Shown piece by piece: positions 1 to 55,287 of a DNA stretch of 64,000 bases. A program made the position numbers and the translations under genes. The stretch's first letter is position 1. Every line of letters begins with the position of its first letter. Origin of the DNA: Candidatus Latescibacterota bacterium (GTDB lineage Bacteria > Latescibacterota > UBA2968 > UBA8231); the NCBI GenBank assembly GCA_965208105.1, contig OZ242318.1, positions 3,712,001 through 3,776,000 of the forward strand. The letters run 5' to 3'. Under the pieces are notes generated by a model that saw only the letters and a list, made by a program, of their open reading frames with translations, had not been told where the DNA came from and searched no databases.

Positions 1-1483
1 GCCGTCGTCCAAGCCAGCCCAAAATGACGATGCCCTGATTCGCGGGGATGTAGATGGGAACGGAGAAGTGAATCAAACCGATGTCATTGCCTTCTTCCTG
101 AAACTTATCACGGGGCAGACGTTCAGCCTGCAGGCCAACATCAATGGCGACGAGAGTACCGACTGGATTGATCTGGCGCTGTTGGGAGCCTATGTGTATG
201 GCGGTCCGGACGCCGAAAATCCCTGGAACATCGGTCAGCCCATCGGCGATCCTCCTACGCAGCCGCCTACGCCTCCTCCAACACCTCCACCCACTCCACC
301 TCCCACACCGCCGCCAGACCCCTACCGCGATGGAAGCTCGATAGAACGGGCGATCATCGTGCCGGATCCCAACTACGTTTTCCAAGGGGAGCAGTTGGAA
401 GCCGGGCAGCAGATCTTCTATCGAGTGGACGTTCCCTCTACCGGGCGCCTGGTCGTCCACTCCGCGGGAAGCACCGATACCTACGGGACACTCATTTACA
501 GAAGCAACCGGGTGGATCGAAACGACGACGGCGGCTCGGGCAGAAACTTTCTGATGGATGTTTCCACCTATACCGGACCGCACTACGTCGCTGTAAGGGG
601 GTATAGCAATGTGGTCAGCGGCGCCTACGACCTCAACGTGGAATTCTTTCCATTCACCTCCGACCAGGCCTTCAACATCGAGCTCCGCTATGTGGCCCGG
701 TTTTCTGCTGAGGAAAAAGCGGAATTCCAGCGCGCCGCCTCCCATTGGGAGAGAATAATTCAGGCCGACGCGGAGGACATCTATTATTTCTCTGGGAACC
801 CTACGACGCTCTCCATAGAATGGTTCGGCTCCGACGTAACGATAGATGGCGTTATCGATGATCTGCTGGTTTTCGTGAACTGAGGCACGATAAACGGCGG
901 GGCGGCGTCCTCAGACCAGGGAATTTTCCGTGAAGATGAGAGCGGATTGCCTTTTTTGGGACTGGTCATGATGGGGGAGGTCGTCCTGGAGTCGGAGGAC
1001 CTGGCGGATGGAACCACCTACGACATATTCCTCCATGAATTAGCTCACACTATGGGCTTCGGATTGATGTGGGACCGCGGGAATTTACTGGCCAATCCGT
1101 CTTCTCGTTTGGCCGGCCGCGACACCCACTTCCGCGGATTCAATGCCGTGAGGGCGTTCGACCAGTCGGGCGGAGAGGACTATATCGGGGGGAAAGTGCC
1201 CGTGGAAAACAGCGCCGAGGCTCCCGGCCCCGGCAGCCGGGACCTCCATTGGAGAGAGTCTGTCTTTGGGGGCGAGGTAATGACCTGGATTCATCGGGGA
1301 GTGCGAGCCCCCCTGAGCAACATCACCCTGCAGTCCTTGTTCGATCTGGGCTATCTGGTGGACGCAAGCCTGGCCGATCCCTATGTGATTCCTGAAACCC
1401 CTGCATTGTCAGCCGGTGATTTTGACCCCGACAGACTCCAATGCACCCTTCACGGCCCGATTTTGATGCCGGGGGGACATTAA
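1..1483 (+). pseudogene. Secreted dockerin / Pro-rich linker / PPC / leishmanolysin-like (M8) zinc metallopeptidase; 5' end outside the window; interrupted by a single in-frame TGA at 881-883
   Basis: Frame 2 is open from the window edge (GDVDGNGEVNQTD dockerin loop). ORFs 68-883 and 947-1483 are the same frame separated by one TGA. HELAHTMGFG and HWRESVFGGEVMT are M8-like motifs. Confidence 0.75.
251..320 (+). repeat. Proline/threonine-rich linker repeat (PPT/PPPT)n
   Basis: PPTQPPTPPPTPPPTPPPTPPPDP between the dockerin and PPC domains. Confidence 0.85.
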
Positions 1484-1836: not shown

Positions 1837-4203
1837 TCAGGATTCTGTTTTCTCACCCAGGCGATACCCGACGCGGGGCTCGGTGAAAAGAAAGGTTGGG
1901 TTGGCGGCGTCGTCTCCCAGCTTGCGGCGGAGGTTTTTTACGGCGGCGCGCACCACCCGTGGATCGATGCTGCCCGGCCCCCAGACCGTTTGCAGCAATT
2001 GTTCGTGGGTTACTACCCATCCGGGGTGAACAGATAGCTCCGCCAACAGGCGATACTCGATGTCGGTCAATCGCACACGCTGCCCGGCCACCGTCACACA
2101 GCGTCCGGCGTAGTCGATGGTCAACTCTCCCAGCACATAGGGTTCCGTGGGATCTGTAATGCCGGATGCCGCCCGTTTGCGCAGAGTCGCCCGCATCCGG
2201 GCGGCCAGTTCCGTCTGTGAGAAGGGTTTGACCATGTAGTCGGCTGCCCCCGCATCGAAGGCCCGGGCGATCACCTCGTCCTGGCCATAGGCGGACAGGA
2301 AGATGACGGGCGCATTCGAGGTCTCGGAAAGGTCTTTCATCAGGTCTATCCCGTCGACGCCGGGCAGCACCAGATCCAGCAACACCAGGTGGGGATGGTG
2401 CTTCTCCATGAGGTGGGGCACATCCTTGGGGTCGGCGGTCACGATGGGAACATAGCCTGATTTGCGAAGGGCATCCCGTATGGTGCGCAGCGCCTGCGGG
2501 TCGTCGTCCACCACCAGGATGGGGGTTCGGTTCCGCTTCGTCGTCGCCCTGCGAGCAGTCCGAGGGAGATCTGAGGCGAGGGCATTCCCCTCCTCCTCGG
2601 CCAGGGGAAGGGTGAAGCTAACAAGAGTACCCTTACCCACGCCCTCGCTTTCCGCCCAAATGCGGCCTCCATGGGCCTCGACAATGCCCTTGCAGATGGC
2701 CAGGCCAAGGCCCCGCCCCTCCTCGCCACAGTCTTGGTCCGGTTCCACTCGCCGGGAAAACTTGCGGAAAAGGTGCGACAGGCGCTCGGCCGACACGCCT
2801 CGGCCCTGGTCGCCCACCGAGACGGCCACGTGGTCCCCCTCCCATACCGCGGCTATGCGGATTATGGTCGACTCGGGCGAGTGCCGGGCCGCGTTGCCCA
2901 GGAGGTTGCCGAGGACCTGCACGAGGCGCCGACGGTCCGCCATCACTCGAGGAAGATCCGGCGCCATCTCGATCTGCAGCGGATGCCGGTTCCCGCCACT
3001 CGAAAAGACCTTTCGGGCTTCGTCCACCAGATCGCCCACGGATTCCGGTTCGGGATGAATCAGCAGGGTGCCCGTTTCGATGCGGGCCACGTCCAGCAGG
3101 TCGTGGATCAGGCCCGTCATTCGGTCGGCCTGCTGATTGATGATGCGAAAGAACGGGATCGTCTCGGCCGGGCTCAGGTCGGTCGAGTTTCCCAGCACGG
3201 TGACGGCAGCGCCCTTGACAGCCGCCAGCGGGGTCCGCAGCTCGTGGCTGACCATGGCCAGAAACTCCGCCCGCAGCCGCTCCAGGTCTTCCAGGTGCGC
3301 CATGTCCTGCACGGTGACGACAAAGGACTCCAAGTCTCCATCCTCCGAGCGGATGGGGGTGGCGTTGACGAGGACGGTCATTTCGCGGCCGTCGGGGCCT
3401 TGGAGAAGGACCTCCTCGGTGCTCACCGCCTCCCCTGCTCTCAGAATATTGGATATGGGGTTTGTTCTCAAGGAGGTCTCCCTGCCGTCCTCCCGGCGGA
3501 TGTTCAGGACTTTCAACAGGGCCTCGACAGTCTGCCCTGGGGCGCGCAGGTACTCAAAGATCCGGAGCGCCTCCTTGTTGGTAGACCGAGGCAGGTCCTT
3601 CCCCCCATCGAAGACGACCACACCCACGGGGGAGATGTCGATCAGGGTCTCCAGGTCGGCCCGGGCCCTCTGCTCGTCCCGGTGTCTGCGGGCATTGGCG
3701 ATGACCAGCGCCGCCTGGGAGGCGAACATGGTCAGGATCTCCTCGTCTTCTTTTGTGAACGCCCTACCGGTCTCCTTGTTGGCAAGATAGATGTTGCCCC
3801 TGCACTCGTCTTGGTGGCGCAAGGGAGCGGCCAGGAAACAACTTACCTCCATGGGGGGCCGGAAGTCAGGGATACCCAGCATTCGGGTGTAGCGGGCAAA
3901 GTCCTTGACCCTCCGAGGGCTTGAAATGTTGCAAAAGTGCTCCCCTGGGGTCGTCTCCCATAATTTCTCGGCCTCCTGGTCCGACATGCCGGAGGCAATT
4001 AAGCCATCAACTTTCCCGGAATCGTCCAAGGTGGCAATCACGCCGTAGCGGGCGTCGGTCAGCGACCGGGCGCTGTCCAGGACCCCCTGCAACACCGTCT
4101 GCAGATCAAGGCTTTCGTTGATGCGCAGGCTCGCCTGGCTCAATCGCGACAGGCGTTGCCGAAGGGTCTTGATCTCTCGTGCCGTTGCCTCGGTTGGATG
4201 CAT
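1837..4203 (-). CDS. Cytoplasmic hybrid histidine kinase-response regulator (GAF-PAS-HisKA-HATPase-REC-OmpR-type wHTH)
   Basis: H-box VSHELRTPL, N-box NLLGNAARH, G-boxes DQGRG/GLGLAIC, REC VVDDD...LLDLVLP...KPF, KdpE-like C-terminus NLRRKLGDD...TEPRVGYRL; GGAGG-like RBS upstream. Confidence 0.92.
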   Translation of the reverse strand: MHPTEATAREIKTLRQRLSRLSQASLRINESLDLQTVLQGVLDSARSLTDARYGVIATLDDSGKVDGLIASGMSDQEAEKLWETTPGEHFCNISSPRRVKDFARYTRMLGIPDFRPPMEVSCFLAAPLRHQDECRGNIYLANKETGRAFTKEDEEILTMFASQAALVIANARRHRDEQRARADLETLIDISPVGVVVFDGGKDLPRSTNKEALRIFEYLRAPGQTVEALLKVLNIRREDGRETSLRTNPISNILRAGEAVSTEEVLLQGPDGREMTVLVNATPIRSEDGDLESFVVTVQDMAHLEDLERLRAEFLAMVSHELRTPLAAVKGAAVTVLGNSTDLSPAETIPFFRIINQQADRMTGLIHDLLDVARIETGTLLIHPEPESVGDLVDEARKVFSSGGNRHPLQIEMAPDLPRVMADRRRLVQVLGNLLGNAARHSPESTIIRIAAVWEGDHVAVSVGDQGRGVSAERLSHLFRKFSRRVEPDQDCGEEGRGLGLAICKGIVEAHGGRIWAESEGVGKGTLVSFTLPLAEEEGNALASDLPRTARRATTKRNRTPILVVDDDPQALRTIRDALRKSGYVPIVTADPKDVPHLMEKHHPHLVLLDLVLPGVDGIDLMKDLSETSNAPVIFLSAYGQDEVIARAFDAGAADYMVKPFSQTELAARMRATLRKRAASGITDPTEPYVLGELTIDYAGRCVTVAGQRVRLTDIEYRLLAELSVHPGWVVTHEQLLQTVWGPGSIDPRVVRAAVKNLRRKLGDDAANPTFLFTEPRVGYRLGEKTES

Positions 4204-4392
4204 GTCGCCCTCCTAAGGGGGTGATATGGCACTCCTCTATGTCTTCAAGAAATGCGCTTGGGAGCGGACCCATCCCCATATTTTCATAAAAAAATCATTA
4301 TAAGTCAAGGGATTTATCACGTATTCCTCATAAACGGATAGTATATTCCAAAAATTGTTTCTTCCGGATGAAGATCTTCAAAGGGAGTGAGC

Positions 4393-5720
4393 ATGATGAA
4401 GCGAATAATCGGTGTTCTCATGGTTCTGTGCTTGGCGCCCGGGATGCAGGCAGGAGCCGAGCCGCTGGTGGAGGGCCGGGTGCGGCTGGCCTCGGGCGAG
4501 CCGGCCGTCGGCGCCTCTGTGCGGCTCTTCGATTTGGCCGATTTGCGTAAGTGGGTCGGCGCCACCACCGATGAGGCGGGCTATTTCGCCCTGCCGTTGC
4601 GGGCCTTGCCGGGGGCGGCGGCCCTGCCGGAGCGCTTCGCGCTGGGGCCGAACTATCCCAATCCGTTCAACCCTTCCACCCTGATTCCCTACCAACTGCC
4701 GCTGGCGACCCACGTGCGGCTGGAGGTATTCAACGTCCTGGGGCAGCGGGTGGCGACGGTGGTGGACGGGGAGCAGTCGGCGGGTTTTCACACGGCGCGT
4801 TGGGACGCCACCGATGCGGCGGGTCGGGCGGCGGCGGCCGGGGTCTATCTCTACCGGCTGCAAGCCGGCGGGGAGAGCATAACCCGGCGCATGGTGTTGA
4901 TTGACGGGCAGGCCGGCCTGCCAAGGGCGTCGTCGGGCGGCTGGGCGCCGGCGGAGGCAGGCCCCCCGGAAACGGGCATCCCGGTCTATGGCTTGACCGT
5001 CTCCGGTGAAGGGCTGGTCCCCTACGTGGACCCGGGCTTCGGCCTGGAGGCTGGCAGGGGGCCGGTGGACCTGGTGGTCGAGGCCCGGGCTGACGGCCCG
5101 CCGGCGAAGGTGGCCACCGAGGGGACGGGCGGGATCCTGGGCGACGTCAACAACGACGGCCAGGTCACCATGGCCGACGCGCTGGTGGTGGTGATCCACC
5201 ATCTCGATGCAACGCTTGCCGCCCCCAACAACGGCGATATTTCGCTGGGCGACGTCAACGCAGACGGCCGCATCGATCTGACCGACGCGCTGCTCATCAT
5301 GACCTACAGCGTCAATCCGAACGATCCGACCTTGCCGGAGGGGATCGGGGGTCCGGTCGCGGAGGAGAGCCCTGCTCCGGATGGTGATTTGCGCTACCCG
5401 GAGGCGACGCCGGTCGCTGCCAACAGTCAGACGGCGGGTATGCTGGCGGGTGGGGAGACCGACTATTATCGCGTCACCCTCAGCGGCCCCGGCACCCTGG
5501 TGGCCTACACCACCGGCGGCACGGATACCTACGGGTACCTGGAGGATAACGCCGGCACGGTGCGGGACCAAAACGACGATGCGGTCAGGGGCAACCGCAA
5601 CTTCCGCGTATCGGCGGTCGTTACGGCCGGCACCTACTACGTCCGGGTCCGCGGTTTTGTTGCGTCCATCACCGGCGCCTATACCCTGCACGTAGAGTTC
5701 GAGCCGGGGGAAACGGTCGC
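4393..5720 (+). repeat. Copy 1 of a ~1.33-kb direct repeat (constant 5' head of the two secreted paralogues)
   Basis: Matches 8087-9414 (offset 3694) with about 12 substitutions counted by eye; identity ends at ...GAAACGGTCGC. Confidence 0.95.
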
Positions 5721-7431
5721 CTCCGACGATCGGGCGGCGCTGGTGGCGTTCTACGAGGCGACCGGCGGGGCTGACTGGGCCGATAGCCGCGGCTGGCTCA
5801 GCACCGCGCCCTTGGGCCAATGGCACGGCGTCGACACGGACACCGACGGCCGCGTTACTCATCTGATCCTCCGTGGTAACCAGTTGAGTGGAGCGATCCC
5901 GGTGGAGTTGGGCCAACTGACCAACTTGCAAGGGCTGAATCTCTCTGGTAACCAGTTGAGTGGAGCGATCCCGGTGGAGTTGGGTCAACTGACCAACTTG
6001 CAGTGGCTGTACCTCGAGGGTAACCAGTTGAGTGGAGCGATCCCGGTGGAGTTGGGTCAACTGACCAACTTGCAGTGGCTGTTCCTCGAGGGTAACCAGT
6101 TGAGTGGAGCGATCCCGGTGGAGTTGGGCCAACTGACCAACTTGCAAGGGCTGAATCTCTCTGGTAACCAGTTGAGTGGAGCGATCCCGGTGGAGTTGGG
6201 TCAACTGACCAACTTGCAGAGGCTGTACCTTGATGGTAACCAGTTGAGTGGAGCGATCCCGGTGGAGTTGGGTCAACTGACCAACTTGCAGGGGCTGTGG
6301 CTCTCTGGTAACCAGTTGAGTGGAGCGATCCCGGTGGAGTTGGGTCAACTGACCAACTTGCAACAGCTGTTTCTCTCTGGTAACCAGTTGAGTGGGTGCA
6401 TACCCGAGGGTTTGCGAGCGGTAGAGGACCATGACCTGGACCAGCTTGGGCTATCGCTGTGCACCACCACGCCCTCCCCTGATCGGGCGGCGCTGGTGGC
6501 GCTCTACGAGGCGGCCGGCGGCGCTGACTGGGCTGATAACGGCGGCTGGCTCAGCGACGCGCCCCTCGGCCAATGGCACGGCGTCGGCACGAACACCGCC
6601 GGTCGCGTTACTCATCTGCGCCTCTCTGGTAACCAGTTGAGTGGAGCGATACCGGTGGAGTTGGGTCAACTAACCAACTTGCAACAGCTATTCCTCTATG
6701 GTAACCAGTTGAGTGGAGAGATCCCGGTGGAGTTGGGTCAACTGACCAACTTGGAATGGCTGTATCTCTCTGGTAACCAGTTGAGTGGAGAGATCCCGGT
6801 GGAGTTGGGTCAACTGACCAACTTGCAGGGGCTGAATCTCTCTGGTAACCAGTTGAGTGGAGAGATCCCGGTGGAGTTGGGTCAACTGACCAACTTGCAA
6901 CAGCTGTTCCTCTCTGGTAACCAGTTGAGTGGAGCGATCCCGGTGGAGTTGGGTCAACTGACCAACTTGCAGGGGCTGAATCTCTCTGGTAACCAGTTGA
7001 GTGGAGAGATCCCGGTGGAGTTGGGTCAACTGACCAACTTGCAACAGCTGTTCCTCTCTGGTAACCAGTTGAGTGGGTGCATACCCGAGGGTTTGCGAGC
7101 GGTAGAGGACCATGACCTGGACCAGCTTGGGCTATCGCCGTGCACCGCCATTGATCCACCGCCGCCGACGGGCGACGCCTGTTTCGTCGGGCAGGAGTTG
7201 AGTCCTGGGCAGAGTTGCACCGTCGATATTCCCAATCTCCACGTCGGCAGCAATCGGTTCGAGGTACGCTCCGGTGGGTCTGGATGTTACGGCAGTATCT
7301 GCGCGGGCACGAGTATGGATCTCAATGGGTTTCAAGCCAGCAAAATTGCGGGCACGTCACGGTGGCTCATCGAAGCACTGCCCAGTACCGCCGGCCAGGC
7401 GAGTGCGAAGGTCTCCGCGGCAGGCTCCTGA
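4393..7431 (+). CDS. Secreted multidomain protein: signal peptide, FlgD/T9SS-CTD-like domain, dockerin, PPC, two leucine-rich-repeat blocks, small Cys-rich C-terminal domain
   Basis: Signal peptide MMKRIIGVLMVLCLA..AGA; LGPNYPNPFNPST; GDVNNDG/GDVNADG; 24-aa LRR LTNLQxLxLxGNQLSGxIPVELGQ; RBS GGAG. Confidence 0.92.
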   Translation: MMKRIIGVLMVLCLAPGMQAGAEPLVEGRVRLASGEPAVGASVRLFDLADLRKWVGATTDEAGYFALPLRALPGAAALPERFALGPNYPNPFNPSTLIPYQLPLATHVRLEVFNVLGQRVATVVDGEQSAGFHTARWDATDAAGRAAAAGVYLYRLQAGGESITRRMVLIDGQAGLPRASSGGWAPAEAGPPETGIPVYGLTVSGEGLVPYVDPGFGLEAGRGPVDLVVEARADGPPAKVATEGTGGILGDVNNDGQVTMADALVVVIHHLDATLAAPNNGDISLGDVNADGRIDLTDALLIMTYSVNPNDPTLPEGIGGPVAEESPAPDGDLRYPEATPVAANSQTAGMLAGGETDYYRVTLSGPGTLVAYTTGGTDTYGYLEDNAGTVRDQNDDAVRGNRNFRVSAVVTAGTYYVRVRGFVASITGAYTLHVEFEPGETVASDDRAALVAFYEATGGADWADSRGWLSTAPLGQWHGVDTDTDGRVTHLILRGNQLSGAIPVELGQLTNLQGLNLSGNQLSGAIPVELGQLTNLQWLYLEGNQLSGAIPVELGQLTNLQWLFLEGNQLSGAIPVELGQLTNLQGLNLSGNQLSGAIPVELGQLTNLQRLYLDGNQLSGAIPVELGQLTNLQGLWLSGNQLSGAIPVELGQLTNLQQLFLSGNQLSGCIPEGLRAVEDHDLDQLGLSLCTTTPSPDRAALVALYEAAGGADWADNGGWLSDAPLGQWHGVGTNTAGRVTHLRLSGNQLSGAIPVELGQLTNLQQLFLYGNQLSGEIPVELGQLTNLEWLYLSGNQLSGEIPVELGQLTNLQGLNLSGNQLSGEIPVELGQLTNLQQLFLSGNQLSGAIPVELGQLTNLQGLNLSGNQLSGEIPVELGQLTNLQQLFLSGNQLSGCIPEGLRAVEDHDLDQLGLSPCTAIDPPPPTGDACFVGQELSPGQSCTVDIPNLHVGSNRFEVRSGGSGCYGSICAGTSMDLNGFQASKIAGTSRWLIEALPSTAGQASAKVSAAGS
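5875..6378 (+). repeat. LRR block 1: seven tandem 72-bp coding repeats
   Basis: GGTAACCAGTTGAGTGG recurs at 5875, 5947, 6019, 6091, 6163, 6235, 6307, then the C-cap at 6379. Confidence 0.95.
6628..7059 (+). repeat. LRR block 2: six tandem 72-bp coding repeats
   Basis: Same unit at 6628, 6700, 6772, 6844, 6916, 6988, then the C-cap at 7060. Confidence 0.95.
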
Positions 7432-7444
7432 CGGCCGCTGGCTG

Positions 7445-7627
7445 CGGCGGCTGGCACCGCAGTCGGAGTAGTTGTACGGCGTCGGCACGAACACCGACGG
7501 TCGCGTTGACTATTTGAACCTCTCTGGTAACCAGTTGAGTGGGTGCATACCCGAGGGTTTGCGAGCGGTAGAAGACCATGACCTGGACCAGCTTGGGCTA
7601 TCGCCGTGCACCACCACGACCCCGTAG
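7445..7627 (+). pseudogene. Orphan LRR module remnant (degenerate N-cap fused directly to C-cap, no internal repeats)
   Basis: Translates to YGVGTNTDGRVDYLNLSGNQLSGCIPEGLRAVEDHDLDQLGLSPCTTTTP*; cap DNA nearly identical to 6373-6465 and 7054-7146; no start codon. Confidence 0.85.
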
Positions 7628-8086
7628 GGAACGGCACCGACCGTATGATCTTGTAGTTGCCATGAGGAACGGCTGTTGTGGCTGGTTGAAGAGTCGCCGC
7701 CGACCCGGCGGGCCAAGGGTCGGCGCGCCGCCTTGACCGGGTCCCCGAGGCCCCTTCGAGGTAGTCGACGTAGAACCCCCATGTCCCTATCCATGGCCCC
7801 CAAAGAGCCATCCTGCGCCTGGGATATCACCTCAAGCACACAACAGGGGCCGGGATAATGGGGAGAGTTGCGCCCTCACCTGGTTCGAGCTCCCTACCAC
7901 CGATCCGCAGACGCCCAGGGAGAGGTACACCCTGGGGTTGCTCCGTCGGGGATTGCTTTCACCCACACCCTTCGGAAAATAGGAAGGGGCTTCGTGCTGC
8001 CATCACTTTGCAGAAATCTCAGGACTGGCCCCGGTCAGTACAGTGCCATGACGAATCAAGGCTGACCCCATATATAAGGAGTAAGC

Positions 8087-9414
8087 ATGATGAGGCGAAT
8101 AATCGGCGTTCTCATGGTTCTGTGCTTGGTATCCGGGATGCAGGCAGGGGCCGAGCCCCTGGTGGAGGGCCGGGTGCGGCTGGCCTCGGGCGAGCCGGCC
8201 GTCGGCGCCTCTGTGCGGCTCTTCGATTTGGCCGATTTGCGTAAATGGGTCGGCGCCACCACCGATGAGGCGGGCTATTTCGCCCTGCCGTTGCGGGCCT
8301 TGCCGGGGGCGGCGGCCCTGCCGGAGCGCTTCGCGCTGGGGCCGAACTATCCCAATCCGTTCAACCCTTCCACCCTGATTCCCTACCAACTGCCGGTGGC
8401 GACCCACGTGCGGCTGGAGGTATTCAACGTCTTGGGGCAGCGGGTGGCGACGGTGGTGGACGGGGAGCAGTCGGCGGGTTTTCACACGGCGCGTTGGGAC
8501 GCCACCGATGCGGCGGGGCGGGCGGCGGCGGCCGGGGTCTATCTCTACCGGCTGCAAGCCGGCGGGGAGAGCATAACCCGGCGCATGGTGTTGATTGACG
8601 GGCAGGCCGGCCTGCCAAGGGCGTCGTCGGGCGGCTGGGCGCCGGCGGAGGCAGGCCCCCCGGAGACGGGCATCCCGGTCTATGGCTTGACCGTCTCCGG
8701 TGAAGGGCTGGTCCCCTACGTGGACCCGGGCTTCGGCCTGGAGGCTGGCAGGGGGCCGGTGGACCTGGTGGTCGAGGCCCGGGCTGACGGCCCGCCGGCG
8801 AAGGTGGCCACCGAGGGGACGGGCGGGATCCTGGGCGACGTCAACAACGACGGCCAGGTCACCATGGCCGACGCGCTGGTGGTGGTGATCCACCATCTCG
8901 ATGCAACGCTTGCCGCCCCCAACAACGGCGATATTTCGCTGGGCGACGTCAACGCAGACGGCCGCATCGATCTGACCGACGCGCTGCTCATCATGACCTA
9001 CAGCGTCAATCCGAACGATCCGACCTTGCCGGAGGGGATCGGGGGTCCGGTCGCGGAGGAGAGCCCTGCTCCGGATGGTGATTTGCGCTACCCGGAGGCG
9101 ACGCCGGTCGCTGCCAACAGTCAGACGGCGGGTATGCTGGCGGGTGGGGAGACCGACTATTATCGCGTCACCCTCAGCGGCCCCGGCACCCTGGTGGCCT
9201 ACACCACCGGCGGCACGGATACCTACGGGTACCTGGAGGATAACGCCGGCACGGTGCGGGACCAAAACGACGATGCGGTCAGGGGCAACCGCAACTTCCG
9301 CGTATCGGCGGTCGTTACGGCCGGCACCTACTACGTCCGGGTCCGCGGTTTTGTTGCGTCCATCACCGGCGCCTATACCCTGCACGTAGAGTTCGAGCCG
9401 GGGGAAACGGTCGC
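8087..9414 (+). repeat. Copy 2 of the ~1.33-kb direct repeat
   Basis: See 4393-5720. Confidence 0.95.
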
Positions 9415-11155
9415 TTCGCTGTCGCCCGACCCTTCGACGGCGACGTTTACCGACGACGGGGCCTGGCACCGGTTCACGGTGCAGGCCGGCGAGGCGGTGT
9501 CGGTGGTGGCCAACCCGGAGGGGACCACCCCGCGCCTGAAGATCACCACCCGCAGCGTCGGGAGCAACTTCTGCCCGGCTGAAGCCGAAGACGACGTCTC
9601 GCGCCGGGACGGCCAGGCCGTCTACCTAGCCGGGTGCGCCACCGGCACGGCCACGGTAGAGCTGCAGCGGCGATCCGACGGCACGGTCCTGAACACCTAC
9701 ACCTTCGAGGTGACCGGCAGCCCGGCGGACCTCATTGTGGAGTCGGTCTCGGTCAGCGACAACACCCTGACGCCGGGGCAATCCTTCACGCTGAGCGCTA
9801 CCGTGCGCAACCAGGGCACGGGCCGGTCGGCGGCGACCACGCTGCGCTGGTACCTCTCGTCAGACACGAGAATCACCACGCAGGATACGGAAGTAGGCAC
9901 CGACCCAGTGACCGCCTTGGGGGGTTCCCGTACCAGTGCCAAGTCGATCCGCCTGACCGCGCCGTCGAGCGAAGGCACCTGGTACTACGGAGCCTGCGTG
10001 GTCAGCGTCACGGGCGAAAGCGTCGGGAACAACTGCTCCCTTGGTGTAAGGGTGATCGTCAAGGAGTACGACAGGGAGGAGATTCTCGTCTTTACTGACC
10101 CACAGATATACAACGACAACGTGTTTGTCTTGCCCGTTACAGAGAACCTCGCCGCCGGCAGTTTGCCACTGAAGGACTACGCGGCGCGTTTCTACGAGAA
10201 CTTCGACGATGCCTTCGATTTCCTGATAATCGTCACCAATTTGCCCGAAGCAGAGAGACCAGTCAGCTATATCGGCAGATATTTGCATGTGAAGAACGAT
10301 GTACAAGGGATTGGTCTATCGATTTTTTCTGACAATAGTAATTGGGGGTCGGCGGGAAAACTCCAAGGTGTGATCGATTTTCCGATCTATTCGACATATT
10401 ACAAGCTCGGACGCTCGGTCTTGTTCGAGGGGCCGACCTTGCACGAACTGATGCATCGGTGGGCAAACTTCATCGTGCCACCATACGAAGCGGCTATTGG
10501 CGCTCATTGGGGATTCACCAGCGTCAACGGTATACTTGGCGGGTTTGATATCGCCAATCTGGTGGACCATGGCGGCGGCCAGTACACCGCCGGAGACATT
10601 GGTGTCAACTTTAATACTGTTGGATGGGGCAACACACGACCATACAGCCCTATCGAGTTGTACTTGGCAGGTCTCATACCCCCAGAGGAGGTCCCTGACT
10701 TCTTGGTTGCAGAGGAGGGACAGTGGCTGCGCGGCGCGGACGGTCTAATCATAGAGGCCGGCAATGGGGAGCCGATATTTACCGCAAGTCGGCTCAAGAC
10801 CTATACGATAGAGGACATCATCGCCGAGCATGGACGACGCGATCCCGACCATTCGCAAGCGCAGAAGGATTTTCGCGCGGCAGTCATTCTGCTGATCGAT
10901 AAGGACCACTTGCCGACCCGAGGTATCCTAGAGACGCTGAGCGACGATATATCCTGGTTCAGTCATGTGGGCAATGTTGGAATCCGCTGGAACGATCGCT
11001 ATCAAGCATACAATTTCTACGAAGCAACCGGTGGCAGAGGCACAATCACCATGGACGAGCTGTCACATTTCCAACGCCGCGGGGGGAGTGCAAAAAGGCT
11101 TGCGCCGAGTTCGTTCGGAACGCCCCCACCGCCCATCGTGGATCATTGGGATTGA
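8087..11155 (+). CDS. Secreted multidomain protein: same head as 4393-7431, then a Cys-containing beta domain, a CARDB-like domain and an HExxH zinc-metallopeptidase-like domain
   Basis: Head repeat; DLIVESVSVS..LTPGQSFTLSATVRNQG (CARDB-like); LHELMHRW...HWG; RBS AAGGAG. Confidence 0.9.
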   Translation: MMRRIIGVLMVLCLVSGMQAGAEPLVEGRVRLASGEPAVGASVRLFDLADLRKWVGATTDEAGYFALPLRALPGAAALPERFALGPNYPNPFNPSTLIPYQLPVATHVRLEVFNVLGQRVATVVDGEQSAGFHTARWDATDAAGRAAAAGVYLYRLQAGGESITRRMVLIDGQAGLPRASSGGWAPAEAGPPETGIPVYGLTVSGEGLVPYVDPGFGLEAGRGPVDLVVEARADGPPAKVATEGTGGILGDVNNDGQVTMADALVVVIHHLDATLAAPNNGDISLGDVNADGRIDLTDALLIMTYSVNPNDPTLPEGIGGPVAEESPAPDGDLRYPEATPVAANSQTAGMLAGGETDYYRVTLSGPGTLVAYTTGGTDTYGYLEDNAGTVRDQNDDAVRGNRNFRVSAVVTAGTYYVRVRGFVASITGAYTLHVEFEPGETVASLSPDPSTATFTDDGAWHRFTVQAGEAVSVVANPEGTTPRLKITTRSVGSNFCPAEAEDDVSRRDGQAVYLAGCATGTATVELQRRSDGTVLNTYTFEVTGSPADLIVESVSVSDNTLTPGQSFTLSATVRNQGTGRSAATTLRWYLSSDTRITTQDTEVGTDPVTALGGSRTSAKSIRLTAPSSEGTWYYGACVVSVTGESVGNNCSLGVRVIVKEYDREEILVFTDPQIYNDNVFVLPVTENLAAGSLPLKDYAARFYENFDDAFDFLIIVTNLPEAERPVSYIGRYLHVKNDVQGIGLSIFSDNSNWGSAGKLQGVIDFPIYSTYYKLGRSVLFEGPTLHELMHRWANFIVPPYEAAIGAHWGFTSVNGILGGFDIANLVDHGGGQYTAGDIGVNFNTVGWGNTRPYSPIELYLAGLIPPEEVPDFLVAEEGQWLRGADGLIIEAGNGEPIFTASRLKTYTIEDIIAEHGRRDPDHSQAQKDFRAAVILLIDKDHLPTRGILETLSDDISWFSHVGNVGIRWNDRYQAYNFYEATGGRGTITMDELSHFQRRGGSAKRLAPSSFGTPPPPIVDHWD

Positions 11156-11384
11156 CCGCGAGAATCTGGACGGAAGGCTGAGGGGGTATTGTGACTGAAT
11201 TGGCTAATAATCATGGCCGTTGGAGGATCAGGCTGAGCAGCTACGATCAGAAACAGTAGGGGTCTTTGTGTACCGGCTGGTGACGAGCGAAGCCGTGCAG
11301 ACACGCGAGCTTACCGTGCTGCGGTAGTGCGGCTCCCATGAGGACGCCGGAACAAGGAGAAAGCCCCACCCACGTCCGCAGACG

Positions 11385-11771
11385 CGAACATGTAGCCCGG
11401 CGCTGGATGTCGGTGATTACGGAAGACCTGCCGGACTATGAATTCACTCAGGGCTGGTCGGGTACGTGCAACGGTCAGTCGTTTGAAAATCTCCGCCGGG
11501 GAGTGGATGGACGACCTGCGGATCTATTCGGGTCGCACTGGAGGACTCCCGTACTCGATGGGGAAGTCATGTTGTCGTACGGGGGAGGGGGGCGCGCTGA
11601 GCTCGATCACGGTTCAGTCCCTGGCCGACCTGGGCTACGGCGTCGATGGCTCTCAAGCTGACCCATATACCCTACCCGGTGCCGGAGCTTTTGTGCGGAG
11701 CCGGTCTCCAGCGGGGGCCGATTCACGTGGTCGACCCGCAGGGGCGCATCGTCCGTACCCTGGGCGACTGA
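11385..11771 (+). pseudogene. Orphan, frameshifted and internally deleted leishmanolysin-like (M8) peptidase module
   Basis: Pieces in different frames (VARRWMSVITEDLPD, DDLRIY, SHWRTPVLDGEVM, LSSITVQSLADLGYGVD..ADPYTLP, PIHVVDPQGRIVRTLGD*) parallel the M8 domain at 660-1483; the HExxH core is missing. Confidence 0.8.
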
Positions 11772-11822
11772 AAGGTATGGCAGGGCGCCAATGAATTCGC
11801 GGAATAGGAGGTCAGCCGCGCC

Positions 11823-11945
11823 TTAGTGATTCTGCCTGAGCCAGTCCAGCAGGCGGCCCAATTGTCCCACCAAGTAAAGCGGCAGCGAGAGCAAGGTCAT
11901 TTCCACGCTCTGTCGCGTCCCGCTCACCTGGTGCTGGATGGAGTT
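11823..11945 (-). pseudogene. Possible C-terminal fragment of an AAA+/DUF4143-type ATPase
   Basis: Minus-strand frame ends VEMTLLSLPLYLVGQLGRLLDWLRQNH*, resembling the LLSLPxYL C-terminus of that family (from memory). Confidence 0.4.
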
Positions 11946-12458
11946 GCTGGGTGAGCAAACGGGTTGTAAAGAATGCCAAGGAAGCTATGTAGCGGTATTC
12001 GCAGCCCTGGCCGAACGCGATCCAAATGTAGGCGTTCCCTCGGTCGGGGAAGCCCAAGATGAGATCCTGACTGAATTCGATCTTCGCGACCTCACACGTG
12101 GTCTCCAAACGAATTCGAGGATGGGCGTCAGGCGCGTCAGCTCATCGCGGAATGGTTTCGGTATTACAACAAAGATCGGCCTCTTTCCAGCCTGGCGGGG
12201 AACCGGACGCCGATGGAGGCCTGCACAGGTCGCCAAGGGGCATGAACGCGGGAGAAACGAGGTGAAACCTTGGCCAAGGCCGGGTGGTCTATCCCCTCAA
12301 CCAGCAAAATGACCATCCTGCCAAGTCGGAAAGGAGACCTCAGAGAAATCCAGAAAAAGCAGGACAGGGCAGCAAATCAACCAAAATGAATCCACCTGGA
12401 TCATGCTGCCAAGCTGTCCAAAGAACGGGGGTCCGCCTCAAAAAGTGGGTCAAGGCTG

Positions 12459-12944
12459 TTATTTTTTCGGGCGGACATACCAGCCAAGGCACCGTTCGAT
12501 TTGAGGATCATACACAACCCCGTATTCCATTTGCTGCCATTCTCCCAATCCATTTTGGAACTTGATCTTATTGCCATAATATTTCAATTTGCCCAATCTC
12601 TTGTCTCCCCACACGAACTTTGGAAACCTGGATTCGTACCAGGCGTCAGTCCATTTGTGGTCGTAATCGGCATAGGATTCTACTATATCGCTGCACTGAA
12701 CATTTACGGCCCTTGAGTGCTTATCTCCCCAGCATTGCAGGTCCTGGCGGCAATTCTGATCCTCAGTCCTTGCTTTCTCCGCCTCTGTTAAATTGGGCTC
12801 AATGGCCTGGAAGTTTTTTAGAGTAGGTCGAACCTTCGAAGCACGTGGTGGGGGCTCTTCGTTGTCTCCTACCATTATTTCGATAGTGCACATTCCCATT
12901 AAAAGGCAGAGCACGGCTCCTACGACCATTAAAAATCCGCCCAT
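12459..12944 (-). CDS. Hypothetical membrane-anchored Cys-containing protein (low GC, mobile-element-like)
   Basis: AGGAGG RBS, N-terminal hydrophobic helix, motifs CRQDLQCWGDKH and KIKFQNGLGEW. Confidence 0.7.
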   Translation of the reverse strand: MGGFLMVVGAVLCLLMGMCTIEIMVGDNEEPPPRASKVRPTLKNFQAIEPNLTEAEKARTEDQNCRQDLQCWGDKHSRAVNVQCSDIVESYADYDHKWTDAWYESRFPKFVWGDKRLGKLKYYGNKIKFQNGLGEWQQMEYGVVYDPQIERCLGWYVRPKK

Positions 12945-12975
12945 ATTGATTTCCTCCTATTTGGTGTCTCCCTTT

Positions 12976-13524
12976 GTCGAAATTGGCGATCACCTAGTCG
13001 TGCGCAATCAGATGGCGCCCCTCGGCATGGTCGCAGAACCAACCCGCCTCCTCGATCATCTCCCCGCTATGGCTGACCAGGGTGTTGTCGATGGCGATCA
13101 CCCCCTGCGCTGAATAGCGCCTCGAGGAATGACCCTGCAACCAGGCCAAACGATGTTCGTTGAGTTGTTCCACATCCCACGGCACCTGAGTAATCCAGAG
13201 GTTCAGGCAGGATGGATCCGTGGTCTGGGCAAACTCGGCGTTGATCGCCGAAACGTTCTTGCGCTCGGCTACCATCAGCCCGGTCAGATATTCGGCAAAG
13301 TGCCAGCGCTCCGGGGTGTCGGCGAACATCCAGCCGAACTCGTCCACGGCTTGCTCGGCGATCGTAGGAAAGGCAATAATACCTGGCGTGAACCCCTCTT
13401 ACAGCGTCAGGGGACGGGCAAGGCGGGGGAGGCCCTGCCTGGCAAATATACTCATGCGGGCGGTATTTCTGCTACCGAAAATCTGGACTCATCGGCAGAA
13501 AAAACTCATTTTGCAAAAGTCCAA
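12976..13524 (-). mobile_element. IS701-family-like transposase remnant (5' part only)
   Basis: HFAEYLTGLMVAERKNVSAIN...GVIAIDNTL; start mutated to ACG near 13388; in-frame TAG at 12994-12996, then truncation; candidate terminal IR TTGGACTTTTGCAAAAT at 13508-13524. Confidence 0.7.
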
Positions 13525-13661: not shown

Positions 13662-16133
<2,472 letters not shown>

Positions 16134-16238
16134 GCGTCTGCTTCAGAGACGTGGTGATGGCAACGGAGTGGGGAACGGCAGCCGCTTCATCGTGCAGATG
16201 AGGCGGCTGTTTGAGTGATCTGAAACAAGAGGTGCCCT

Positions 16239-53616: not shown

Positions 53617-55287
53617 TCATCTCGCCCCGCGCCGGCGCAACATGTCCGCCACCTCTCCGTGCCCCCGGCGCTGAGCCCAGGCCAGCGGCCGCGCCCAGTC
53701 CTCGCCGGCCCCGTTTGGGTCGGCTCTGTTCTCCAGAAGCAGCTCGACGAGCCGCGGCCGGCCGGCGCGCGCCGCCATGCCCAGCGGCGTCGAGCGGTCC
53801 GCCTCCTCGACGGCGTTGATATCCGCACCGTGTTCGAGAAACATGCTCAGCAGCTCCCCGGCCTCAGCCAGGTCACGGTGGTCAACGCAGACGTCGTGCA
53901 GCGGGGTGCGCCGATGCCAGTCGGGCAGGTTCGGATCGAGTCCGTGCTCCAGCAACTGCCGGGTCATGTGAGGCACGTTGTAGAGATACCCCTTGCACTC
54001 GGTGAGCACCTCGGGCATGGGGAACCGGCGCCGCAGCAGCATGCTCAGAATGGCCTCGTGGGCAACGGTGCTTTCCTTTCTGCGCAGCTTGCGATTGCAG
54101 CCGCTGACGACCGCGGTGTAAGGCGTCGTCAGGAACTCGGACTTCTCGGCCGAGAACGGATCTTCACAGTAGTTCAGGATCACCGCCAGGGTCTGGAGGT
54201 CGCCGCGCTGGGCGAAGTCCCAGGCCGTCACCGGTCGGCCTCCGTGACCGTAGAGCAATCCCCGCATCGCATCGGAGGAGGCCTGGATCGCCGGCGTCCC
54301 CGACGAGTCGACGCCTCCGTTGGGGTCCGCCCCTGCTTCCAGCAGCCAGCGCGCCATTTCCACGTCGTCCTTCACCGCGGCCGCCATCAGGGCGAAGCCG
54401 TGGGGGCACTGGCGTCCTTCGGGCAGGATCGGATCGGCGCCGCGGTCGAGAAGGTAGCGCACCATCTCCCGGTGACCCCGCTCCGCGGCGGCCGAAAGCG
54501 GCCGCTTCTGCAACCCTTCCCCTTCATTGGCCGCGGCCGGGTCCGCTTCGACGAATGCGCGCAATGCGCCGTGGTCGCCGCGCGCCGCCGCCAGGGCCGG
54601 GCTGTCGGCGGCTCCCGCGTCGAGCAGCATCTGCAACAGCGCTGCGCCGCCCTCGTCAGAGCCCCAGTACTGGTTCTTCCAGAAGGCGTAGTGGGCGGCG
54701 CGAAAGCCGCGGTGATCCACCGCGTCCACGTCGATCCCGTCCGCCAGCAGCATAGCCACCGTGTCGCCGTCGCCGCCGAGTGCCGCCAGGTGCAGGGCGG
54801 TCCTCCCCTGCCTGTCGCGGTGCTCGGCTATTCCCGGGACCGCGGCCAGCAGCTGCGCGACCTCGCCGCGGTCCCGGGCTTCCACCGCCCGGAGCAGACG
54901 CAGGTCGGAACTTTCTGCCGCCGGGCCCAGGGAAGCGCGCAGATAGGCGGCGATTCCGTCGTGTCCGCGGTCGTCAGCCATCTGGATGAGGTCGGAGACC
55001 TCGTCGAACGGGTAGGCTTCCCACAGCACCCGGGTTGCATCAAGGCTGCCCTCGCGGACCGCGAAGTTGAGCGGCGGCGTATACCAGAACTCGAGGCGGG
55101 GGCAGTCCGGGTCTTTTTTCAGGAGGTCGCCGATGGTCTGCGCGTCGTTGCGGATGGCGGCGCAGACAAGGTCCCAGTAGAGGCGGCCCTTTTCAGTATC
55201 GACGCACCACCTGGGGCGGTGGATGGCGTCGATCTTCTCCTTCGCGCTGCGGCTTCTGGAATCGGATCCTGGAGAATTCATCGTCAT
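53617..55287 (-). CDS. Ankyrin-repeat protein
   Basis: Repeated G.T.LH.AA..G..E.V..LL..GAD motifs (GRTALHLAA, RPLSAAA, RTPLH, STPLGMAA). Confidence 0.9.
   Translation of the reverse strand: MTMNSPGSDSRSRSAKEKIDAIHRPRWCVDTEKGRLYWDLVCAAIRNDAQTIGDLLKKDPDCPRLEFWYTPPLNFAVREGSLDATRVLWEAYPFDEVSDLIQMADDRGHDGIAAYLRASLGPAAESSDLRLLRAVEARDRGEVAQLLAAVPGIAEHRDRQGRTALHLAALGGDGDTVAMLLADGIDVDAVDHRGFRAAHYAFWKNQYWGSDEGGAALLQMLLDAGAADSPALAAARGDHGALRAFVEADPAAANEGEGLQKRPLSAAAERGHREMVRYLLDRGADPILPEGRQCPHGFALMAAAVKDDVEMARWLLEAGADPNGGVDSSGTPAIQASSDAMRGLLYGHGGRPVTAWDFAQRGDLQTLAVILNYCEDPFSAEKSEFLTTPYTAVVSGCNRKLRRKESTVAHEAILSMLLRRRFPMPEVLTECKGYLYNVPHMTRQLLEHGLDPNLPDWHRRTPLHDVCVDHRDLAEAGELLSMFLEHGADINAVEEADRSTPLGMAARAGRPRLVELLLENRADPNGAGEDWARPLAWAQRRGHGEVADMLRRRGAR

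What the first reader, a model, noticed from the sequence alone, without database searches (positions are those of the whole stretch)
4381..11771. Candidate domain-swapping surface-protein system: constant secreted head, exchangeable C-terminal modules, displaced orphan modules
Seen: two tandem genes share ~1.33 kb of >99% identical 5' DNA (signal peptide, sorting-like domain, dockerin, PPC). Identity ends sharply at EFEPGETVAS (5720/9414), after which one gene encodes LRR arrays and the other CARDB plus an HExxH peptidase. Each gene is followed by a start-less, decayed C-terminal module (LRR caps at 7445-7627, M8 peptidase at 11385-11771). A third, divergent gene (1-1483) has the same dockerin-PPC-effector layout. 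Known: polymorphic toxin loci (Rhs, CDI, Maf) show this constant-N/variable-C plus orphan arrangement. Inference: this is an analogous diversification system for binding and protease modules, with no immunity genes, in which new tips displace old ones downstream.
Basis: partly seen in the sequence, partly recalled or inferred. Interest (0 to 1): 0.82.

Follow-up and report, generated by a model that had tools for sequence, protein, structure and literature searches.

The report
Shared-head secreted proteins with swapped tails
Two neighbouring genes of a probable Gemmatimonadota bacterium carry an almost identical export-and-anchoring front half joined to quite different binding or protease back halves, with dead fragments of older back halves left behind them, which shows recent cut-and-paste evolution in a very large, undescribed family of secreted proteins.

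Summary
Positions 4384-5720 and 8078-9414 differ at 13 of 1337 bases, and identity stops within one codon. The tails are LRR arrays in gene 1 and CARDB plus an unnamed HExxH domain in gene 2. Start-less LRR and M8-like fragments follow the two genes.

The shared "head" is not local. At least 2622 database proteins carry it N-terminally, joined to many kinds of tail. The few that a source names are from Gemmatimonadota.

Gene 2 is a chimera. Its tail type is otherwise found with its own head, which lacks the PPC domain (0 of 9 homologues have one there). The joint lies in a three-residue linker.

In gene 1 a small terminal domain ("Z") has cut the former LRR end off the reading frame.

My best reading is recombination-driven domain shuffling among modular paralogues, with later gene conversion between the two heads. 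The genetic layout resembles a polymorphic-toxin locus, but I found no toxin, no immunity gene, and one orphan is clearly dead.

Whether orphans are reused, and whether other genomes show them, could not be tested. My only genome scan returned generic sorting domains, and no reads were available.

Interest is moderate. I class it as a new variant of a known kind.

The parts
2..1483 (+). Divergent family member (gene 0), cut at its 5' end by the window start: dockerin, PPC-like stretch, M8-like tail with HELAH. Interrupted by an in-frame TGA at 881-883.
   Evidence: Dockerin_1 23.4 bits. Head residues 238-440 match 2-652 at 27% identity, E 1e-14. Peptidase_M8 only E 0.23. The stop was read as X. 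Translation.
4384..5720 (+). Head copy 1 (ribosome-binding site plus codons 1-443 of gene 1): signal peptide, CarboxypepD_reg-like domain, internal T9SS-type/FlgD-Ig sandwich (about 4654-4896), small beta domain, dockerin (5137-5307), PPC (5458-5655).
   Evidence: The AlphaFold model shows separate domains (pLDDT 68, pTM 0.35).
4393..7431 (+). Gene 1: head, then two plant-type LRR modules (5721-6474 and 6475-7155, 72-nt repeat period), then the Z tip.
   Evidence: ORF. The database protein P0003 starts at this ATG. Repeats. Pfam.
7156..7475 (+). Z-tip segment: a roughly 70-aa Cys-containing terminal domain (about 7171-7383) plus its own C-terminal extension. The extension is frameshifted near 7425 and carries a TAG at 7469-7471.
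   Evidence: 136 representative proteins match at E<=1e-3, often at their exact C-terminus. P0243 is 84% identical and continues through the extension. No Pfam match over these residues.
7476..7627 (+). Orphan 1: the collapsed former LRR end (tail of an N-cap, one repeat, C-cap, stop). It has no start codon.
   Evidence: 91% identical to 6578-6644 and 97-98% identical to the C-caps at 6373-6474 and 7053-7150. P0008 and P0016, the nearest heads, end exactly at this point.
8078..9414 (+). Head copy 2.
8087..11155 (+). Gene 2: head, unnamed beta module 'g2mod' (9422-9724), CARDB (9725-10000), and domain X (about 10085-11152) with HELMH at 10442-10456.
11377..11768 (+). Orphan 2: decayed 3' end of an M8-like-tailed family member. 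It has at least 4 frame changes, lacks about 100 internal residues (where the HExxH would be expected; not verified), and reaches the natural C-terminus.
   Evidence: blastx against P0013, P0043, P0076, P0120 and others. Translations. 50% identity to gene 0 residues 428-469.
12105..12213 (+). Remnant of a transposase integrase core (rve_3), read through stops.
   Evidence: Pfam rve_3, E 1.5e-6, 28.3 bits against a cut-off of 26.5.

Best explanation
The locus holds members of a very large, unnamed family of Sec-exported modular proteins, probably of Gemmatimonadota.

Each member has a roughly 440-aa N-terminal head: signal peptide, CarboxypepD_reg-like domain, a T9SS-type sorting sandwich that here sits internally, a small beta domain, a type I dockerin and PPC. 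I infer that the head is a common export and surface-docking platform. It carries interchangeable tails: two kinds of LRR, CARDB, beta-propellers, an M8-like peptidase, the HExxH domain X and the small terminal domain Z. I infer that the tails supply ligand binding or hydrolysis.

Shown:
- Gene 2 is a chimera of a gene-1-type head (PPC included) and a g2mod-CARDB-X tail.
- The joint lies in a short V-A-S linker.
- The two heads have exchanged sequence since then, because the last 749 bp are identical.
- In gene 1 a 320-bp Z segment lies between LRR module 2 and a former LRR end.
- An older M8-like end lies dead behind gene 2.

Inferred:
- These are products of ordinary illegitimate (microhomology) and homologous recombination among paralogous modular genes.
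- The likeliest route is replacement of tails on resident heads, which strands the old 3' ends.
- Gene conversion between the tandem heads followed.
- The orphans are by-products, not a maintained store.
- The locus is unstable. The 98%-identical C-cap repeats (7053-7150 and 7519-7616) could delete Z, and the 1.3-kb head repeats could delete or amplify 3694 bp.
For: Family size and layout:
- 2622 proteins matched the head at E<=1e-3 among 8000 scored.
- Of the 118 listed hits other than the window's own, 117 start the match within their first 45 residues.
- The match ends after PPC in 90 of the 118 and after the dockerin in 28.

Gene 2 is a chimera:
- 0 of 9 homologues with a g2mod-CARDB-X tail have PPC between dockerin and g2mod. 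Their linker runs straight into the same LSPDPS start. Pfam finds no PPC in P0146.
- Gene 2's g2mod is 67-79% identical to eight of them, but its head is only 59-61% identical. Among those eight, head and g2mod identities track each other (for example 92/92, 86/98, 60/69).
- Gene 2's head is closest (76% and 72%) to P0008 and P0016, which are head-PPC-plant-LRR proteins.

Junction and conversion.

Z is a real, recurrent terminal domain.

Orphan 1 ends as P0008 and P0016 end and is 97-98% identical to the resident C-caps.

M8-like is the last module in 12 of the 12 head proteins that have it, and orphan 2 runs to that natural end.

Several paralogues inferred to share one contig have heads 86-96% identical with different tails.

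Composition is mosaic. GC3 is 0.84 in the head, 0.92 in g2mod, 0.63 in X and 0.73 in LRR, against 0.89-0.90 in clpB and bamA.

No intergenic ORF has a Pfam hit or looks coding.
Against: - Which piece moved is unresolved. If the head was copied onto gene 2, orphan 2 needs a separate deletion. If the tail was pasted in, the start of identity right at the ribosome-binding site, with unrelated upstream DNA, is unexplained.
- No genomic locus of any relative was obtained, so I do not know how common orphans are.
- No reads were available, so assembly and population variation are unchecked.
- 'Same contig' for paralogues is inferred only from equal contig lengths.
- Heads from other contigs are almost as similar (91-93%) as heads within the 7.3-Mb contig (89-96%). 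Concerted evolution at family level is therefore not shown.
- Head function is inferred from domain names only. No cohesin gene lies in the window.
- The T9SS-type domain is not at the C-terminus, where such signals normally sit.
Confidence: 0.55

Rival explanations
1. The locus is a maintained diversification system like Rhs, CDI or Maf. The head is the fixed delivery part, tips are exchanged by recombination, and the downstream start-less tips are a reusable reserve.
For: - The constant-head, variable-tail layout is family-wide.
- Two stranded former ends lie in one 7.4-kb locus.
- Orphan 1 keeps a roughly 100-bp handle that is 97-98% identical to the expressed gene. The 522-bp, 95%-identical handle of the Salmonella rhs orphan is the comparison (PMC3967940, passages read).
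- Both orphan module types occur fused to heads elsewhere.
- Breakpoints recur at the PPC end in 14 of 21 pairs.
Against: - Orphan 2 has at least 4 frame changes, an internal deletion and no homology to either gene.
- Orphan 1 would contribute only a stop codon, not a new function.
- There is no toxin domain. The best hint for X is PT-TG at E 0.086, below the cut-off.
- There is no immunity-like ORF.
- Head and tail are co-inherited among eight gene-2-type homologues.
- No further module copies lie elsewhere in the 64-kb window.
Confidence: 0.2
2. Only the head moved. Gene 2 always stood here with its own head, which was overwritten from gene 1 and then homogenised by gene conversion. The two orphans are unrelated debris from deletions, possibly transposon-mediated.
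For: - The identity gradient runs about 10% divergent in the first 81 bp, 1% in the next 507 bp and 0% in the last 749 bp. That fits repeated conversion tracts ending where homology ends.
- An rve_3 remnant lies about 340 bp beyond orphan 2.
- The DNA upstream of the two genes is unrelated.
Against: - Gene-2-type heads are only about 60% identical in protein to this head. That is poor substrate for homologous conversion.
- The copied tract carries a PPC that has no counterpart in the recipient type.
- Two same-strand, family-type 3' ends lying directly behind the two genes would be coincidence.
Confidence: 0.15
3. The tandem near-identical heads, or the head-to-tail joint of gene 2, are an assembly artefact.
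For: The source appears to be a metagenome-style assembly. Each of the two proteins is seen in a single contig only, and 749 bp are exactly identical.
Against: - The two copies differ at 13 positions and have four distinct flanks.
- A false joint at 9414 would need shared sequence there, and only about 5-7 bases are shared.
- The reading frame, the linker and the downstream module are intact and match homologues residue for residue.
Confidence: 0.05

Closest known systems
Rhs / CDI / Maf polymorphic toxin loci with orphan toxin fragments
   Same: A conserved N-terminal delivery part joined to a variable C-terminal part. Start-less displaced 3' fragments lie downstream on the same strand. One orphan keeps a short, highly identical handle. 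(PMC3967940: abstract, introduction and results passages read.)
   Different: The tails are binding repeats or putative peptidases, not recognised toxins. There are no immunity genes. One orphan is dead and has no handle. The head shares no domain with Rhs, CdiA or MafB. Reuse of orphans is not shown.
TANFOR-domain polymorphic toxins of Bacteroidetes
   Same: Large proteins of the FCB group with a shared N-terminal domain, variable C-terminal parts and a link to T9SS. (PMC7073777: only the search listing and the start of the abstract were seen.)
   Different: No TANFOR domain was found by Pfam. No toxin or immunity pair is present. Here the T9SS-type domain is inside the N-terminal head.
Dockerin-bearing modular enzymes of cellulosome-type systems (recalled from general knowledge, not from a call)
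   Same: One common docking module is combined with many different functional modules in paralogous secreted proteins. The dockerin passes the Pfam cut-off in both genes.
   Different: The dockerin is in the N-terminal half and embedded in a five-domain head. No cohesin gene lies in the window. The tails are mostly binding modules rather than glycoside hydrolases. The phylum is Gemmatimonadota.
T9SS cargo proteins with a type A C-terminal sorting domain (TIGR04183)
   Same: Residues 90-170 pass the TIGR04183 cut-off. They are 30-55% identical to such domains in 79 loci of FCB-group genomes. T9SS may occur in Gemmatimonadetes (PMC11285876, introduction passage).
   Different: In 78 of those 79 loci the domain ends one codon before the stop. 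Here about 840 residues follow it.
Silent-cassette antigenic variation (pilE/pilS, vlsE and the like; recalled, not from a call)
   Same: An expressed gene lies next to start-less partial copies that share short identical stretches with it.
   Different: There is only one short LRR fragment with such identity. There is no array of cassettes and no evidence of switching.

Membership tests
Polymorphic toxin system (Rhs/CDI/Maf type) | Conserved N-terminal region with a sharply variable C-terminal region among paralogues or strains | tested here: met
   99% identity up to 5720/9414, unrelated after. Holds family-wide.
Polymorphic toxin system (Rhs/CDI/Maf type) | The C-terminal domain is a toxin | tested here: not met
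   Tails are LRR, CARDB, Z and X. No toxin family was found in Pfam or NCBIfam. PT-TG is only E 0.086. X has no PDB fold match, so a toxic activity of X is not strictly excluded.
Polymorphic toxin system (Rhs/CDI/Maf type) | A cognate immunity gene directly downstream of each tip | tested here: not met
   0 of 12 intergenic ORFs in 7215-8244 and 10965-12565 had a Pfam hit. None of the 11 checked for composition showed the coding pattern of this genome. Immunity proteins are often unannotated, so this is strong but not absolute.
Polymorphic toxin system (Rhs/CDI/Maf type) | Orphans carry part of the conserved region, which allows recombination with the main gene | tested here: inconclusive
   Orphan 1 shares about 100 bp at 97-98% with the LRR C-caps, not with the head. 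Orphan 2 shares nothing with genes 1 or 2.
T9SS type A cargo | The sorting domain lies at the extreme C-terminus | tested here: not met
   The domain lies at residues 90-170 of 1014 and 88-168 of 1022. It is C-terminal in 78 of 79 comparison loci.
Cohesin-dockerin assemblies | A type I dockerin module | tested here: met
   Dockerin_1 at 34.7 and 35.8 bits against a cut-off of 22.9. A two-helix segment is present in the model.
Cohesin-dockerin assemblies | A cohesin-bearing partner in the same genome | not testable with these tools
   None of the 33 further window ORFs scanned has one. The rest of the genome was not available.
Peptidase M8 (leishmanolysin) | A match to the family profile above its cut-off, with the HExxH site | tested here: inconclusive
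   Gene 0 tail: E 0.23, 10.5 bits against 21, with HELAH present. Homologue P0050 passes (26.6 bits) and is 33% identical to the gene 0 tail. P0076 and P0120 do not reach E 1e-3. Orphan 2 lacks about 100 internal residues where the motif would be expected; I did not locate the motif in the homologues.
Zinc metallopeptidase (zincin), for domain X | HExxH on a helix plus a zincin fold | tested here: inconclusive
   H, E and H are invariant in 25 of 25 aligned sequences. The motif lies in helix 144-153 of the model. There is no Pfam or PDB-sequence hit, and the best PDB fold match has E 0.76.

The most novel reading that the evidence does not exclude
Gemmatimonadota may run a toxin-free counterpart of polymorphic toxin loci. 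In this reading a lineage-specific head serves both as the export and docking platform and as the recombination handle. Its sorting sandwich would have been moved from the C-terminus to the N-terminal part. Binding or protease tips would be swapped in and out at fixed linkers. Stranded tips would stay usable for a while through short identical handles, so that populations carry alternative surface proteins.
Probability: 0.15. Interest if true: 0.8.

Novelty: new variant of a known kind. Interest (0 to 1): 0.55.

Why it matters
If the reading is right, a little-studied phylum holds thousands of secreted proteins built on one undescribed N-terminal platform. This locus would catch the shuffling almost in the act: a dated chimera, a fresh tip insertion and two stranded ends.

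That gives a concrete handle on three questions:
- how modular surface proteins diversify outside pathogens;
- what the head binds, and whether an internal T9SS-type domain still sorts;
- whether orphan fragments, known from toxin loci, are a general by-product of tail replacement.

Three unnamed domains (X, Z and g2mod) are also defined well enough here to be curated.

Tried and rejected
Searches that led nowhere:
- My only genome-contig scan was built on the generic motif NYPNPFNP. It returned 79 loci of ordinary C-terminal sorting domains. None holds a dockerin, PPC, X, CARDB, M8-like or Z match, and one (L009) holds only LRR. The loci of relatives therefore stayed unseen.
- The listing of cluster members could not be run because the database was switched off. 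The taxon rests on the 5 homologues that carry a source name, all Gemmatimonadota or Gemmatimonadaceae.
- The two ESM Atlas searches gave only sub-threshold leads (0.89 and 0.76).
- PDB sequence searches of X and of the gene 0 tail found nothing significant (E 0.62 and 0.41).
- The PDB fold search of X found nothing.
- The promoter and terminator scan was no better than shuffles (2 against 2.4, and 8 against 6.9).

Ideas I rejected:
- The two orphans are halves of one LRR-M8-like tail split by insertion of gene 2. The LRR of head-LRR-M8-like proteins is a different, internalin-like type, and orphan 1 ends with its own stop.
- 7424-7475 is an LRR N-cap remnant. It matches the extension after Z in P0243.
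- The C-terminal 99 residues of gene 1 are read-through junk. They form a recurrent domain.

Inconclusive:
- Concerted evolution at family level.

Literature:
- Searches found no paper describing this head family. One search returned 0 papers. One search returned one 2008 protease survey, seen in the listing only.

Full report
**1. The observation**

An ungapped comparison at an offset of 3694 shows that 4384-5720 equals 8078-9414 apart from 13 mismatches in 1337 bp. All 13 lie in 4389-4971, and the last 749 bp are identical. The chance of that placement under uniform scatter is 2.3e-5. Per-window identity falls from 100% to 30% within one 50-bp step at 5720/9414.

At the joint both genes still encode V-A-S. 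The A and S codons differ (GCC TCC against GCT TCG), so the DNA breakpoint lies at ...GTCGC. Upstream, identity starts only about 9 bp before the ATG, at the ribosome-binding site. The DNA before that is unrelated.

Gene 1 is 4393-7431 and gene 2 is 8087-11155. The database holds both exactly, each from a single contig of 4,846,116 bp.

**2. Domains**

Both heads contain:
- a hydrophobic N-terminal signal-like segment (judged from the sequence and from helix 6-15 of the model);
- a partial CarboxypepD_reg match;
- a FlgD_ig / TIGR04183 T9SS type A sorting domain at residues about 90-170 (44.6 and 43.3 bits, cut-off 23);
- Dockerin_1 (34.7 and 35.8 bits, cut-off 22.9);
- PPC.

An AlphaFold model of the head built on a 25-sequence alignment shows five separate folded units joined by low-confidence linkers (pLDDT 68, pTM 0.35).

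Gene 1 continues with two plant-type LRR modules. Each has an N-cap, 72-nt repeats and a C-cap. It ends with a 99-residue stretch.

Gene 2 continues with an unnamed roughly 100-residue module (g2mod), CARDB (E 4e-9) and a roughly 360-residue domain that I call X. For X:
- HExxH is invariant in 25 of 25 aligned sequences;
- the motif lies on a helix of the model (pLDDT 71, pTM 0.77);
- there is no Pfam or PDB-sequence match;
- the best PDB fold match has E 0.76.

'Peptidase' is therefore a reasonable guess, not a result.

**3. The head is a family trait, not a local repeat**

A search with residues 1-447 found 2622 proteins at E<=1e-3 among 8000 scored. Of the 118 listed hits other than the window's own:
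- 117 have the match starting within their first 45 residues;
- the match ends after PPC in 90 and after the dockerin in 28.

By local comparison with modules taken from this window, I classed the 119 head-bearing proteins of a 121-protein set. That set is the 120 listed hits, which include the window's two genes, plus my own translation of gene 1. The tails are:

| Tail | Proteins |
|---|---|
| CARDB | 47 |
| LRR | 6 |
| LRR + CARDB | 4 |
| LRR + M8-like | 5 |
| LRR + CARDB + M8-like | 5 |
| M8-like | 2 |
| LRR + Z | 2 |
| CARDB + X + g2mod | 1 |
| None of these (by precomputed Pfam, mostly beta-propellers, FGE-sulfatase and others) | 47 |

Domain X is itself widespread: 604 proteins at E<=1e-3 among 6070 candidates. 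Of the 120 listed, 40 have the N-terminal part of the head and 80 do not. Two carry the sorting-type domain at their C-terminus instead.

All five listed X homologues that a source names are called Gemmatimonadota, Gemmatimonadetes or Gemmatimonadaceae proteins. That is my only basis for the taxon. The cluster look-up that might have added names was unavailable.

**4. Gene 2 is a chimera**

Nine proteins share gene 2's g2mod-CARDB-X tail. None of the nine has PPC between dockerin and g2mod. In the eight that I aligned, the dockerin linker (...GIGEPVA..AS) runs directly into the same LSPDPS... start. Pfam finds no PPC in P0146.

Among eight of them, head identity and g2mod identity rise and fall together (92/92, 86/98, 75/84, 60/69 and so on). 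That points to co-inheritance. Gene 2's g2mod is 67-79% identical to them, yet its head is only 59-61% identical.

The head is instead closest to P0008 (76%) and P0016 (72%), with dockerins 87-89% identical. Both are head-PPC-plant-LRR proteins like gene 1. In P0016 the PPC is followed by ..LVAS before the LRR N-cap.

So a gene-1-type head, PPC included, has been joined to a gene-2-type tail inside a short V-A-S linker that both parents probably possessed. I infer microhomology there.

The divergence gradient is about 10% in the first 81 bp, 1% in the next 507 bp and 0% in the last 749 bp. This indicates later exchange between the two heads, that is, gene conversion running up to the point where homology ends.

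**5. The end of gene 1 and orphan 1**

The last 99 residues of gene 1 are not junk. 136 representative proteins match at E<=1e-3, 61 of them at E<=1e-10. They match a roughly 70-residue core that is very often the exact C-terminus. It follows LRR, CARDB or PPC in other proteins, including head-bearing ones (P0271, and P0243 with a dockerin).

P0243 is 84% identical and continues for about 20 more residues. The window has the same extension in another reading frame at 7424-7470, with a TAG. This stretch therefore belongs to the Z segment and not to an LRR cap.

DNA identity to the LRR array resumes at 7476:
- 91% to 6578-6644;
- then 97-98% to both C-caps.

It then runs into a stop five codons after the cap. 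P0008 and P0016 end at exactly this point.

A 320-bp Z segment, bringing its own end, therefore sits where an N-cap should be, and it has cut a former LRR end off the reading frame. The two C-caps at 7053-7150 and 7519-7616 are 98%-identical direct repeats 466 bp apart. Recombination between them would remove Z. This is a prediction, not an observation.

**6. Orphan 2**

blastx of 11100-13200 against the collected proteins aligns 11377-11768, in pieces on all three forward frames, to the M8-like module of head-LRR-M8-like proteins. For example:
- P0076 residues 721-770, then 877-928;
- P0013 residues 1457-1487 of 1487;
- P0043 residues 1316-1339 of 1339.

The fragment thus starts about 20 residues into the module, lacks about 100 internal residues (where the HExxH would be expected), changes frame at least four times and reaches the natural end. 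It is 50% identical to gene 0 residues 428-469 and has no similarity to gene 2's own tail.

M8-like is the last module in 12 of the 12 head proteins that have it. One of them, P0050, passes the Pfam M8 cut-off (26.6 bits against 21). P0076 and P0120 do not reach E 1e-3.

An integrase-core (rve_3) remnant lies at 12105-12213.

**7. Which piece moved**

Two routes fit the chimera.

- Route (a): a tail segment (g2mod-CARDB-X plus 221 bp of 3' flank) replaced the interior of a resident head-PPC-...-M8-like gene. This explains the PPC, the sharp joint and orphan 2 in one event. It parallels the Z insertion in gene 1.
- Route (b): the head was copied from gene 1 over gene 2's own head. This explains the unrelated upstream DNA. 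But it needs recombination between heads that are only about 60% identical in protein, a tract that carries an extra domain, and a separate deletion to create orphan 2.

I favour (a), but the data do not decide. Both are ordinary recombination.

**8. Comparison with polymorphic toxin loci**

Passages of PMC3967940 describe rhs orphans as follows:
- they resemble displaced fragments of full-length genes;
- they usually lack translation start signals;
- they often retain part of the conserved region (522 bp at 95% in Salmonella);
- they are linked to immunity genes and can be re-expressed by recombination.

Here the layout and the stranded ends are alike, and orphan 1 keeps a short handle. The differences are these:
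- no tail is a recognised toxin;
- no immunity-like ORF exists (0 of 12 intergenic ORFs with a Pfam hit, and none of the 11 checked for composition looks coding);
- orphan 2 is dead;
- fusing orphan 1 back would add only a stop codon.

The locus therefore resembles such systems in how the genes evolve. It is not a member of them.

**9. Family-level recombination**

Seven listed paralogues share a contig length of 7,335,155 bp, so I infer one genome. Their heads are 89-96% identical. In 14 of 21 pairs the high-identity block stops at residues 422-436, the end of PPC. In the other 7 pairs it continues because the tails are alike.

Five further same-length pairs have heads of 86-96%. Other same-length pairs are only 56-61%.

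However, heads from other contigs are nearly as close (91-93%). This may be one clade with a recently expanded head rather than homogenisation within a genome. I count family-level concerted evolution as not shown.

**10. Context and limits**

The rest of the window is chromosomal housekeeping: Clp ATPase, BamA, Skp, FabZ-like, TamA/TamB-like, PEPCK, IlvD and AddAB-like. It also holds an ankyrin-repeat protein and a PD40 propeller. There is no cohesin, and the family modules I searched with (head, both tails, gene 0) have no further copy.

The following were not tested:
- the genome outside the window;
- loci of relatives;
- reads;
- the closed contig collections.

It did show that the sorting-type domain is C-terminal in 78 of 79 other FCB-group loci.

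Five literature searches found no description of this head family.

Noticed in passing
window 4654-4896 and 8348-8590; loci L001-L079: The T9SS type A sorting domain of the head is internal, with about 840 residues following it. In 78 of 79 fetched loci from other FCB-group genomes the homologous domain ends one codon before the stop, with a median of 762 open codons upstream. Two X-domain proteins (P0173, P0223) carry it at the C-terminus. The head may have arisen by fusion of a small sorted protein to a dockerin protein.
   Followed up: partly
window 881-883: An in-frame TGA interrupts gene 0 between its PPC-like part and its M8-like tail. It could mark a pseudogene, a sequencing error or read-through. 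I did not resolve which.
   Followed up: no
window 10007-11155, compared with 4393-5724 and 13662-18524: Composition is mosaic inside single genes. GC3 is 0.63 in domain X (down to 0.42 near 10250), 0.73 in the LRR tail and 0.69 in Z. It is 0.84 in the head, 0.92 in g2mod, 0.85 in CARDB and 0.89-0.90 in clpB and bamA. This suggests that the modules have different origins or ages.
   Followed up: partly
window 7171-7383; proteins P0241-P0375: Z is an unnamed Cys-containing domain of about 70 residues with 136 representative hits. It occurs at N-termini after a signal peptide, internally (3 copies in P0241) and very often as the exact C-terminus. Many hits are short proteins (60-200 aa) that consist of little else. 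These could be contig-end fragments or stranded tips.
   Followed up: partly
window 10085-11152; proteins P0122-P0125: Domain X (HExxH) has no Pfam family and no PDB fold match. It occurs twice within single proteins, alternating with LRR blocks in some of them (P0122-P0125).
   Followed up: partly
window 12105-12213: A remnant of a transposase integrase core (rve_3) lies about 340 bp downstream of orphan 2. It is followed by about 900 bp of lower-GC DNA (0.53-0.56) with no recognisable gene.
   Followed up: partly
window 7053-7150 and 7519-7616: Direct repeats, 98% identical and 466 bp apart, flank the Z tip. Recombination between them would restore a gene that ends like P0008 and P0016.
   Followed up: no
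window 53617-55548 (-) and 55542-56381 (+): A 643-aa ankyrin-repeat protein lies next to a PD40 beta-propeller protein. Together with the plant-type LRR these are eukaryote-like repeat proteins, which may point to a host-associated lifestyle.
   Followed up: no
window 1837-4203 (-): A hybrid GAF-PAS histidine kinase with a receiver and a Trans_reg_C output domain is transcribed divergently from gene 1, across an AT-rich 180-bp spacer. It is a possible local regulator.
   Followed up: no
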